36,786 nt of DNA from Escherichia phage T7, in sequence record MZ375274.1; one strand, 5' to 3'. The position numbers and the translations under genes were made by a program. Of the stretch, positions 9,952 to 11,694 are shown piece after piece (position 1 is the stretch's first letter; every line of letters begins with the position of its first letter). The notes beneath the pieces were generated by a model. It was given only the letters and a program-made list of their open reading frames with translations. It searched no databases and was not told the DNA's origin.

Positions 9952-11694
9952 ATGCGCAAGTCTTATAAACAATTCTATAAAGAACTAGGAGGGAATTGCA
10001 TGGACAATTCGCACGATTCCGATAGTGTATTTCTTTACCACATTCCTTGTGACAACTGTGGGAGTAGTGATGGGAACTCGCTGTTCTCTGACGGACACAC
10101 GTTCTGCTACGTATGCGAGAAGTGGACTGCTGGTAATGAAGACACTAAAGAGAGGGCTTCAAAACGGAAACCCTCAGGAGGTAAACCAATGACTTACAAC
10201 GTGTGGAACTTCGGGGAATCCAATGGACGCTACTCCGCGTTAACTTCGAGAGGAATCTCCAAGGAAACCTGTCAGAAGGCTGGCTACTGGATTGCCAAAG
10301 TAGACGGTGTGATGTACCAAGTGGCTGACTATCGGGACCAGAACGGCAACATTGTGAGTCAGAAGGTTCGAGATAAAGATAAGAACTTTAAGACCACTGG
10401 TAGTCACAAGAGTGACGCTCTGTTCGGGAAGCACTTGTGGAATGGTGGTAAGAAGATTGTCGTTACAGAAGGTGAAATCGACATGCTTACCGTGATGGAA
10501 CTTCAAGACTGTAAGTATCCTGTAGTGTCGTTGGGTCACGGTGCCTCTGCCGCTAAGAAGACATGCGCTGCCAACTACGAATACTTTGACCAGTTCGAAC
10601 AGATTATCTTAATGTTCGATATGGACGAAGCAGGGCGCAAAGCAGTCGAAGAGGCTGCACAGGTTCTACCTGCTGGTAAGGTACGAGTGGCAGTTCTTCC
10701 GTGTAAGGATGCAAACGAGTGTCACCTAAATGGTCACGACCGTGAAATCATGGAGCAAGTGTGGAATGCTGGTCCTTGGATTCCTGATGGTGTGGTATCG
10801 GCTCTTTCGTTACGTGAACGAATCCGTGAGCACCTATCGTCCGAGGAATCAGTAGGTTTACTTTTCAGTGGCTGCACTGGTATCAACGATAAGACCTTAG
10901 GTGCCCGTGGTGGTGAAGTCATTATGGTCACTTCCGGTTCCGGTATGGGTAAGTCAACGTTCGTCCGTCAACAAGCTCTACAATGGGGCACAGCGATGGG
11001 CAAGAAGGTAGGCTTAGCGATGCTTGAGGAGTCCGTTGAGGAGACCGCTGAGGACCTTATAGGTCTACACAACCGTGTCCGACTGAGACAATCCGACTCA
11101 CTAAAGAGAGAGATTATTGAGAACGGTAAGTTCGACCAATGGTTCGATGAACTGTTCGGCAACGATACGTTCCATCTATATGACTCATTCGCCGAGGCTG
11201 AGACGGATAGACTGCTCGCTAAGCTGGCCTACATGCGCTCAGGCTTGGGCTGTGACGTAATCATTCTAGACCACATCTCAATCGTCGTATCCGCTTCTGG
11301 TGAATCCGATGAGCGTAAGATGATTGACAACCTGATGACCAAGCTCAAAGGGTTCGCTAAGTCAACTGGGGTGGTGCTGGTCGTAATTTGTCACCTTAAG
11401 AACCCAGACAAAGGTAAAGCACATGAGGAAGGTCGCCCCGTTTCTATTACTGACCTACGTGGTTCTGGCGCACTACGCCAACTATCTGATACTATTATTG
11501 CCCTTGAGCGTAATCAGCAAGGCGATATGCCTAACCTTGTCCTCGTTCGTATTCTCAAGTGCCGCTTTACTGGTGATACTGGTATCGCTGGCTACATGGA
11601 ATACAACAAGGAAACCGGATGGCTTGAACCATCAAGTTACTCAGGGGAAGAAGAGTCACACTCAGAGTCCAACAGACTGGTCCAACGACACTGA
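9952..11694 (+). CDS. 4: Primase-helicase gp4A with a 16-codon N-terminal extension from the gene 3.8 start, and a frameshifted C-terminus
   Basis: 580-aa ORF; [16 protein letters not shown] (gene 3.8 start with its RBS GGAGG) joins in frame to [23 protein letters not shown]... at 10000; Zn-ribbon cysteines and Walker A GSGMGKST present; ends ...ESNRLVQRH. Confidence 0.85.
10189..11694 (+). CDS. 4B: Helicase gp4B (internal start at Met64 of gp4A)
   Basis: In-frame ATG 63 codons after the 4A start preceded by GGAGG (aggaggtaaaccaATG), as in T7. Confidence 0.7.
11099..11121 (+). promoter_or_regulatory. Weak internal T7 promoter phi4c
   Basis: ACAATCCGACTCACTAAAGAGAG inside gene 4. Confidence 0.55.

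What the first reader, a model, noticed from the sequence alone, without database searches (positions are those of the whole stretch)
9952..10002. Gene 3.8 collapsed to 16 codons and fused in frame to gene 4A
The ATG at 9952 (with RBS GGAGG, downstream of phi3.8) opens a frame [16 protein letters not shown] that continues without a stop into MDNSHDSD..., the canonical gp4A start at 10000. In T7 gene 3.8 is a separate ~121-codon HNH-like ORF in another frame. A deletion of about 292 bp not only removes 3.8 but probably yields an N-terminally extended primase-helicase next to its zinc-ribbon domain.
Basis: partly seen in the sequence, partly recalled or inferred. Interest (0 to 1): 0.58.

Follow-up and report, generated by a model that had tools for sequence, protein, structure and literature searches.

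The report
Engineered T7 deletion fuses 3.8 to primase
The window is the genome of a laboratory-made, genome-reduced phage T7 in which a 292-bp deletion of the dispensable gene 3.8 happens to put its start codon in frame with the primase-helicase gene; the reading is correct, but the same junction already sits in 38 public genomes and is probably harmless.

Summary
Relative to T7 (V01146/NC_001604), bases 11254-11545 (292 bp) are missing. The gene 3.8 ATG (window 9952, SD GGAGG 7 nt upstream) therefore reads [10 protein letters not shown]+ELGGNC straight into the gene 4A ATG at 10000, with no stop.

The window is a complete 36,786-bp genome of a genome-reduced T7 mutant. Its nearest record is MZ375278.1, "Mutant Escherichia phage T7 clone T7_230S". 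The clone names match the CiPGr Cas9/homology-template series of Yuan et al. 2022.

The identical junction is in 38 deposited genomes, and MZ375278.1, the one record whose feature table I read, starts its primase/helicase CDS at this ATG. The junction is blunt, with no microhomology, like the exact-ORF deletions of genes 1.4 and 5.3 in the same genome. I therefore read it as a designed deletion whose in-frame outcome is incidental (a 1-in-3 chance).

The native 4A and 4B ribosome sites and start codons are intact. Up to three nested products are expected: 4A+16, 4A and 4B. Whether the extended form is made is untested. No clone mutated this region across the sampled transfers, so it is tolerated.

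Interest is low and the feature is already known. More notable is a private 1-nt insertion at 11669 that frameshifts gp4's C-terminal polymerase-binding tail.

The parts
9890..9912 (+). T7 promoter phi3.8 (TAATTGAACTCACTAAAGGGAGA), transcription start at 9907
   Evidence: Window 9433-9980 is identical to T7 10706-11253. T7 annotates phi3.8 at 11180, which is window 9907.
9940..9944 (+). Shine-Dalgarno GGAGG of the gene 3.8 start, 7-nt spacer to the ATG
   Evidence: Sequence read. SD/anti-SD duplex is -10.0 kcal/mol, identical to wild type.
9952..9980 (+). Retained 5' 29 nt of gene 3.8 (ATG plus 9 2/3 codons: [10 protein letters not shown])
   Evidence: Equals T7 11225-11253.
9980..9981 (.). 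Deletion junction. T7 11254-11545 (292 bp, including the whole HNH_3 domain of gp3.8) is missing. The join is blunt, with 0 bp of microhomology.
   Evidence: An identical 70-nt junction sequence is present in 38 MZ375xxx records.
9981..10025 (+). Retained 3' 45 nt of gene 3.8 (T7 11546-11590). It carries the gene 4A SD (AGGAGG, 9987-9992) and the first 26 nt of 4A. Bases 9981-9999 are now read as ELGGNC in the 4A frame.
9952..11694 (+). Fused ORF of 580 aa (64.4 kDa): a 16-aa basic extension plus gp4A carrying A83S and a frameshifted C-terminal tail
   Evidence: Pfam Zn_Ribbon_Prim 29-63, Helic-prim_T7_N, Toprim and DnaB_C. Residues 17-280 of the submitted 280-aa N-terminal fragment match gp4 chains 6n7i and 1nui at every position except A83S (plus the M64G of 1nui).
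10000..11694 (+). Canonical gene 4A reading frame from its native ATG (564 aa in this genome)
   Evidence: Native SD and ATG unchanged from T7.
10189..11694 (+). Gene 4B (helicase-only form) from the internal in-frame ATG with its own SD (GGAGGT)
   Evidence: Equals T7 11754.
10246..10246 (+). G->T substitution giving gp4 A83S, next to R84
   Evidence: Shared with MZ375277.1.
11669..11669 (+). 1-nt insertion (C) after T7 13233. It frameshifts the last 9 codons of gene 4, giving ...[12 protein letters not shown] instead of ...[14 protein letters not shown].
   Evidence: Not found in any record of the phage collection.

Best explanation
The window is a whole genome of a genome-reduced laboratory T7 from the CiPGr lineage. 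In that method, Cas9 cuts non-essential genes and a plasmid-borne template with 50-bp homology arms repairs the cut as a designed deletion.

The gene 3.8 cassette removed T7 11254-11545. It kept 29 nt at the 5' end of 3.8 and 45 nt at its 3' end, the latter holding the RBS and start of the overlapping essential gene 4A. Because 292 bp is 1 mod 3 and 4A lies +1 relative to 3.8, the surviving 3.8 ATG is now in frame with 4A. This is an incidental by-product of where the arms were placed.

On class II mRNA, ribosomes can load at three in-frame sites:
- the unchanged 3.8 site (9952), giving gp4A with a 16-residue basic N-terminal tail ahead of the zinc ribbon;
- the unchanged 4A site (10000);
- the 4B site (10189).

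The allele spread because phages lacking the 3.8 protospacers escape Cas9, not because the fusion is useful. The extension is most likely a tolerated appendage.

Shown: the deletion, the frame, the intact start sites, identity of the junction with 38 deposited clones, and viability of those clones. Inferred: that the deletion was designed, that the extended protein is made, and that it is neutral.
For: Deletion and frame.

Provenance:
- The nearest record is MZ375278.1, 'Mutant ... clone T7_230S'. It aligns to the window end to end at 99.886% in a single piece, so no deletion-sized gap separates them.
- MZ375233.1 is 'T7_10L'.
- The paper describes T7 clones picked every 10 transfers as large (L) or small (S) plaques, 50-bp HR arms, whole-gene cassettes, and undesigned large deletions of 0.3-0.6, 4.3-4.7 and 19.5. 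All of these are present here.

Designed character: the junction has 0 bp of microhomology, like the deletion of gene 1.4 (exactly 7608-7763, ATG to stop) and of 5.3 (from its ATG) in the same genome.

Same junction: 38 genomes match at 100% over 70 nt. An independent T7_mini design deletes 3.8 differently and has no fusion.

Start sites: SD energies are -10.0, -10.7 and -11.6 kcal/mol, and mean unpaired probability over -18..+12 is 0.42, 0.42 and 0.50.

Tolerance: none of the 38 clones has a change in window 9946-10015.

Protein identity.
Against: No protein, N-terminal or ribosome-profiling data exist for any of these clones, so production of the extended form is not shown.

The 3.8 AUG is predicted to be partly paired in a small hairpin (P unpaired 0.28, against 0.80 for the 4A AUG).

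The cassette design table (supplement) is not held, so 'designed' rests on junction anatomy and on the method description. The paper's main text never mentions 3.8 or the primase.

The window is not identical to any deposited record. It differs from T7_230S by 33 mismatches and 7 gaps.
Confidence: 0.88

Rival explanations
1. The fusion exists only on paper. Initiation at 9952 is negligible, cells make essentially only normal gp4A and gp4B, and the 'extended primase' is an artefact of longest-ORF annotation.
For: The 3.8 AUG is predicted to be mostly paired (P unpaired 0.28 in the mutant and 0.20 in wild type). The GenBank calls are clearly automatic: in 3.8+ clones gene 4 is called only from the 4B start, and in deletion clones from the 3.8 ATG. 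I found no proteomic evidence that gp3.8 is translated in wild type.
Against: The SD (GGAGG, 7-nt spacer, -10.0 kcal/mol) is about as strong as that of 4A, and overall site accessibility is equal (0.42 against 0.42). The site is the first start site after the phi3.8 transcription start. The predicted hairpin is short and A/U-rich.
Confidence: 0.22
2. The deletion arose spontaneously and was selected because an N-terminally extended primase-helicase, or altered 4A expression, benefits the reduced genome.
For: The allele is in every record numbered MZ375276-MZ375294, which by the numbering rule are the late-transfer clones. In-frame fusions to essential genes are sometimes adaptive.
Against: The junction is blunt with no microhomology, and the identical junction is present in all 38 clones, as expected of a single HR template. 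The library carried spacers against non-essential genes, so losing 3.8 is itself selected by Cas9. By the record numbering, 3.8+ clones co-existed until about transfer 210.
Confidence: 0.04
3. Sequencing or assembly artefact: the 292-bp gap or the reading frame is not real.
For: The window carries private differences from all deposited records, including a suspicious 1-nt insertion in gene 4.
Against: The same junction, base for base, is in 38 independently assembled genomes. The flanks are otherwise identical to T7.
Confidence: 0.01

Closest known systems
CiPGr genome-reduced T7 clones (MZ375241-MZ375294 subset, e.g. T7_230S MZ375278.1; Yuan et al., Nucleic Acids Res 2022, PMC9825161)
   Same: Identical 3.8/4A junction over 70 nt in 38 records. 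T7_230S aligns to the window end to end in one piece, so it has the same deletion pattern (0.4-0.6, 1.4, 1.7, 3.8, 4.3-4.7, 5.3, 19.5). In MZ375278.1 the primase/helicase CDS is already annotated from the 3.8 ATG.
   Different: The window matches none of them exactly. It differs from T7_230S by 33 mismatches and 7 gaps, carries gp4 A83S (as in T7_230L), and has a private +1 frameshift in the gp4 C-terminal tail.
Wild-type T7 gene 3.8 / gene 4A overlap (V01146, NC_001604)
   Same: Same phi3.8 promoter, same 3.8 RBS and ATG, and same 4A and 4B RBSs and ATGs. In wild type, too, ribosomes translating 3.8 run across the 4A start (26-nt overlap).
   Different: In wild type 3.8 is a separate 121-codon HNH_3 ORF in another frame that stops 26 nt inside 4A. 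Here the HNH domain is gone and the 3.8 start feeds the 4A frame.
T7_mini (PP384394.1), an independent engineered minimal T7
   Same: Also lacks a functional gene 3.8 and keeps gene 4A with its native RBS.
   Different: Its deletion removes the 3.8 RBS, ATG and 5' part, and leaves about 100 nt of the 3' end of 3.8 as a 4A leader. No upstream in-frame start and no fusion result.
Natural nested in-frame starts of T7 gene 4 (4A at Met1, 4B at Met64)
   Same: One reading frame with several SD/ATG sites gives co-existing proteins that differ only at the N-terminus. The mutant adds a third, more upstream site.
   Different: 4A/4B is a natural arrangement annotated in the T7 reference. Its functional roles are established knowledge that I did not check here. 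The 4A+16 form is accidental and uncharacterised.

Membership tests
T7 gene 4 primase-helicase (DnaG-type primase fused to DnaB-like SF4 helicase) | N-terminal Cys4 zinc ribbon | tested here: met
   Pfam Zn_Ribbon_Prim at residues 29-63 of the fusion. Cys at fusion positions 33, 36, 52 and 55, which are gp4 C17, C20, C36 and C39. There is one extra Cys at position 16, immediately before Met1.
T7 gene 4 primase-helicase (DnaG-type primase fused to DnaB-like SF4 helicase) | RNA-polymerase (TOPRIM) domain and DnaB-like helicase domain | tested here: met
   Helic-prim_T7_N 1.6e-31, Toprim_2 4.8e-12, DnaB_C 3e-17. Residues 17-280 of the submitted N-terminal fragment equal chains 6n7i and 1nui apart from A83S and, in 1nui, its M64G.
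T7 gene 4 primase-helicase (DnaG-type primase fused to DnaB-like SF4 helicase) | Internal in-frame 4B start with its own SD | tested here: met
   ATG 10189 preceded by GGAGGT, -11.6 kcal/mol, identical to T7 11754.
T7 gene 4 primase-helicase (DnaG-type primase fused to DnaB-like SF4 helicase) | Acidic C-terminal tail ending in Phe, which binds T7 DNA polymerase | tested here: not met
   In this window the last 9 residues TDWSNDTDF are replaced by NRLVQRH through a +1 insertion at 11669. The tail is intact, apart from S557P, in sibling MZ375278.1.
HNH endonuclease gp3.8 (Pfam HNH_3) | HNH_3 domain (gp3.8 residues 14-56) | tested here: not met
   T7 gp3.8 matches HNH_3 at 3e-15 over residues 14-56. 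Only codons 1-10 survive in the window, so no gp3.8 protein is encoded.
CiPGr genome-reduced T7 series (Yuan et al. 2022) | Same 3.8 junction and same deletion pattern as deposited clones | tested here: met
   38 records are 100% identical over window 9946-10015. The window aligns to T7_230S end to end in one piece, and its deletions are mapped against T7.
CiPGr genome-reduced T7 series (Yuan et al. 2022) | Designed deletions have template-defined blunt junctions at gene boundaries | tested here: met
   0-bp microhomology at the 1.4 (exact ORF), 3.8 and 5.3 junctions. The method uses 50-bp arms.
CiPGr genome-reduced T7 series (Yuan et al. 2022) | Junction matches a cassette in the published design table; accession listed in Supplementary Table S10 | not testable with these tools
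   No supplementary files are held. The accession numbers are not in any searchable text. The link rests on clone names such as T7_10L and T7_230S against the paper's naming.

The most novel reading that the evidence does not exclude
In these reduced phages the 4A+16 protein is a major primase-helicase species. Its basic 16-residue tail, with an extra Cys right before the zinc ribbon, would measurably change primer-site recognition, primer hand-off or hexamer behaviour. It would thereby contribute, together with the altered C-terminal tail in this genome, to the slow-growth phenotypes of late CiPGr clones.
Probability: 0.07. Interest if true: 0.3.

Novelty: already known. Interest (0 to 1): 0.1.

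Why it matters
It matters little for biology. The case shows that a 'whole-gene' deletion next to an overlapping essential gene can silently create an N-terminal fusion. That is a useful caution for phage genome design and for automatic annotation: the same gene 4 is called 'helicase' from the 4B start in 3.8+ clones and 'primase/helicase' from the 3.8 ATG in deletion clones.

If the extended gp4A is made, the 38 viable clones are evidence that the N-terminus of the zinc-binding domain tolerates a 16-residue appendage.

Tried and rejected
- **Accession search.** I searched the literature for MZ375 accession numbers and found nothing. The paper's supplement with the design and accession tables is not held.
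- **Evidence that gp3.8 is translated in wild-type T7.** The papers found discuss only RNA levels and the R3.8 site, or report about 50 T7 proteins detected without naming 3.8.
- **N-terminally tagged active gp4.** A 'His-tagged T7 primase' is used, but the tag position is not stated in the text I read, so I did not use it.
- **Rfam scan of 9400-10400.** Only a chance sub-threshold snoRNA hit.
- **RNA folding of the 5' leader.** It did not explain why 29 nt of 3.8 were retained. It shows only the phi3.8 5' hairpin and a small hairpin around the 3.8 AUG.
- **tblastn of the N-terminus against all phages.** Among the 40 records sampled across the ranking, no natural relative matched the extension. 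Natural homologues aligned from about residue 17-24, and a few from residues 8-16 where in-frame upstream leader sequence happens to align.
- **Structure prediction of the extended zinc-binding domain.** Not run, because it would need an expensive homologue search and would not change the verdict.
- **Sequencing artefact and spontaneous adaptive deletion.** Both rejected; see the rival explanations.

Full report
**What is in the sequence.** Window 9952 is an ATG preceded by GGAGG (9940-9944, 7-nt spacer). It opens an ORF that runs to 11694 and begins [24 protein letters not shown].... No stop lies between 9952 and the ATG at 10000.

Aligned to T7 (V01146), window 9433-9980 equals T7 10706-11253 with no mismatch, and window 9981 resumes at T7 11546. 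Exactly 292 bp (11254-11545) are absent.

In T7, gene 3.8 is 11225..11590, 121 codons with Pfam HNH_3 at residues 14-56, and gene 4A starts at 11565. The 4A frame is +1 relative to 3.8 (340 mod 3 = 1). Removing 292 bp (1 mod 3) leaves 48 nt, or 16 codons, in frame. Ten of the 16 codons are the start of 3.8. The other six (ELGGNC) are the 4A leader, including its AGGAGG Shine-Dalgarno sequence, read in the 4A frame.

**What the window is.** It is a complete linear genome with terminal repeats at both ends and 99.8-99.9% identity to T7.

- The best match is MZ375278.1, "Mutant Escherichia phage T7 clone T7_230S" (36,783 bp). It aligns to the window end to end at 99.886% in a single piece.
- MZ375233.1 is "T7_10L".
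- These names match Yuan et al. 2022 (PMC9825161). In that study T7 was passaged 300 times on cells carrying Cas9 and a library of cassettes, each with a spacer plus two 50-bp homology arms. The cassettes were designed to delete a whole gene or a 100-bp piece. Large (L) and small (S) plaques were picked every 10 transfers and sequenced.
- The paper also reports undesigned large deletions of 0.3-0.6, 4.3-4.7 and 19.5. All three are present here, beside the deletions of 1.4, 1.7, 3.8 and 5.3.

The link between the accessions and the paper is inferred from the names. The accession table is in a supplement that is not held.

**Origin of the deletion.** The 3.8 junction is blunt, with no shared bases between the two sides. 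So are the deletion of gene 1.4, which removes exactly ATG to stop (7608-7763), and that of 5.3, which starts at its ATG. This is what a homology template gives, not what slippage between repeats gives.

The retained 45 nt at the 3' end of 3.8 hold the SD and first 26 nt of the essential gene 4A. That explains why the "whole-gene" deletion stops 19 nt before the 4A ATG. I could not explain why 29 nt were kept at the 5' end.

A 70-nt probe across the junction is 100% identical in one piece in 38 MZ375 records. Every other T7-like phage listed matches it only as two pieces 292 bp apart. By the record numbering the junction first appears in MZ375241, inferred to be transfer 50. It co-exists with 3.8+ clones, and it is present in every record from MZ375276 onward.

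Loss of the 3.8 protospacers is itself selected in this system. An independently engineered T7_mini (PP384394.1) deletes 3.8 in a different way that removes its RBS and ATG and creates no fusion. The in-frame outcome is therefore best read as an accident of arm placement, with a 1-in-3 prior.

**How it most likely works.** The region from the phi3.8 start (9907) through codon 10 is unchanged from wild type, so whatever initiation occurs at the 3.8 start in T7 should occur here. Three sites can initiate in the same frame:

| Site | SD/anti-SD energy (kcal/mol) | Mean P(unpaired), -18..+12 | P(unpaired) of AUG |
|---|---|---|---|
| 9952 (3.8 start) | -10.0 | 0.42 | 0.28 |
| 10000 (4A) | -10.7 | 0.42 | 0.80 |
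| 10189 (4B) | -11.6 | 0.50 | 0.81 |

The 3.8 AUG sits in a short A/U-rich hairpin, which accounts for its lower value.

I therefore expect three nested products. In this genome they would be 580, 564 and 501 aa (64.4, 62.5 and 55.6 kDa). The extension is basic (pI 9.5) and precedes the roughly 12 residues that lie before the Pfam-defined zinc ribbon. It adds one Cys directly before Met1.

None of the 38 clones has any change in 9946-10015. This argues that the fusion is at least tolerated. No protein-level data exist. The GenBank CDS from 9952 is an automatic call, because the same pipeline calls gene 4 only from the 4B start when 3.8 is intact.

**Comparison with the known.** The protein is T7 gp4. 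Its first 280 residues are identical to the solved chains 6n7i and 1nui apart from the extension, A83S and the engineered M64G of 1nui. All domains are present. gp3.8 as an HNH protein is gone.

Apart from the deleted residues, the arrangement differs from wild type only in frame. In T7, ribosomes on 3.8 also cross the 4A start, but they stop 26 nt later. The feature is already public and already annotated this way, so it is not novel. The paper's main text, however, never mentions 3.8 or the primase.

**An aside that affects the same ORF.** This window has a private extra C at 11669, after T7 13233. It replaces the last nine gp4 residues, TDWSNDTDF, with NRLVQRH. No deposited record has it.

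The very same base is T->C (S557P) in ten CiPGr clones, including T7_230S. It lies 9 nt upstream of a TGG PAM inside the non-essential, overlapping gene 4.2. This looks like a Cas9-escape hotspot, and the paper notes that escape mutations occur.

The acidic C-terminal tail recruits T7 DNA polymerase. A recent preprint reports that gp4 lacking the 17-residue tail still supports leading-strand synthesis, but at about 15% of wild-type activity and with lower processivity. A real frameshift would therefore plausibly give a poorly growing yet viable phage. It could equally be a sequence error. I could not decide between these.

**Verdict.** The cause is an engineered deletion in a published mutant series, and the likely consequence is a harmless extra N-terminal isoform of gp4A. 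Interest is low (0.1) and the feature is already known.

Noticed in passing
window 11669 (gene 4 codon 558 onward; ORF end 11694): [quoted passage not shown] It is absent from every record in the phage collection. It is either a sequence error or a real lesion that would be expected to impair replication.
   Followed up: partly
T7 13233 = window 11668; L003 (MZ375278.1) 11668: The same base is T->C (gp4 S557P) in 10 CiPGr clones and is the site of the window's insertion. It lies 9 nt 5' of a TGG PAM (CACACTCAGAGTCAACAGAC|TGG) inside the overlapping non-essential gene 4.2. This suggests recurrent Cas9-escape mutations landing in the essential gene 4.
   Followed up: partly
window 10246: A G->T change gives gp4 A83S, adjacent to R84, whose alanine substitution is reported to abolish primase and helicase function (PMC9198812). 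It is shared with T7_230L (MZ375277.1), and by DNA identity with MZ375267, 269 and 284, but not with T7_230S.
   Followed up: partly
window 1-142 and 36645-36786: The terminal repeat is 142 bp instead of 160 bp. An 18-bp deletion (T7 99-116) is present in both copies. T7_230S shares it, at least in the left copy.
   Followed up: no
window 387, 19983, 24342: There are point mutations in T7 promoters. phiOL +1 is A->G (towards consensus) and phi10 +1 is G->T; both are shared with T7_230S. phi13 -11 is G->A and is private to the window. These may tune expression in the reduced genome.
   Followed up: no
window 11688-11730: The 4.3-4.7 deletion joins the end of gene 4/4.2 to the end of 4.7 through a short stretch of similar sequence. 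The same or nearly the same junction region appears in other laboratories' T7 lines (PV223880-83 at 98.8%; PP384394/96 at 97% in two pieces). This hints at a recurrent deletion or a shared design.
   Followed up: no
window 8798-8799 (gene 2.8): A TA->GT dinucleotide substitution in the HNH gene 2.8 is shared with T7_230S. It may be another Cas9-escape change.
   Followed up: no
L006 (MZ375233.1) 11755-13266 versus L002/L003 (MZ375278.1) 9952-11700: The annotation is inconsistent within the deposited series. Gene 4 is called only as 'helicase' from the 4B start when 3.8 is intact, and as 'DNA primase/helicase' from the 3.8 ATG when 3.8 is deleted. The true 4A start is annotated in neither case.
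   Followed up: yes
paper PMC9825161 versus records MZ375276/278/286/294: The paper names T7_300L (36,937 bp) as the smallest T7 genome, but several deposited clones, and this window, are smaller (36,532-36,786 bp).
   Followed up: no
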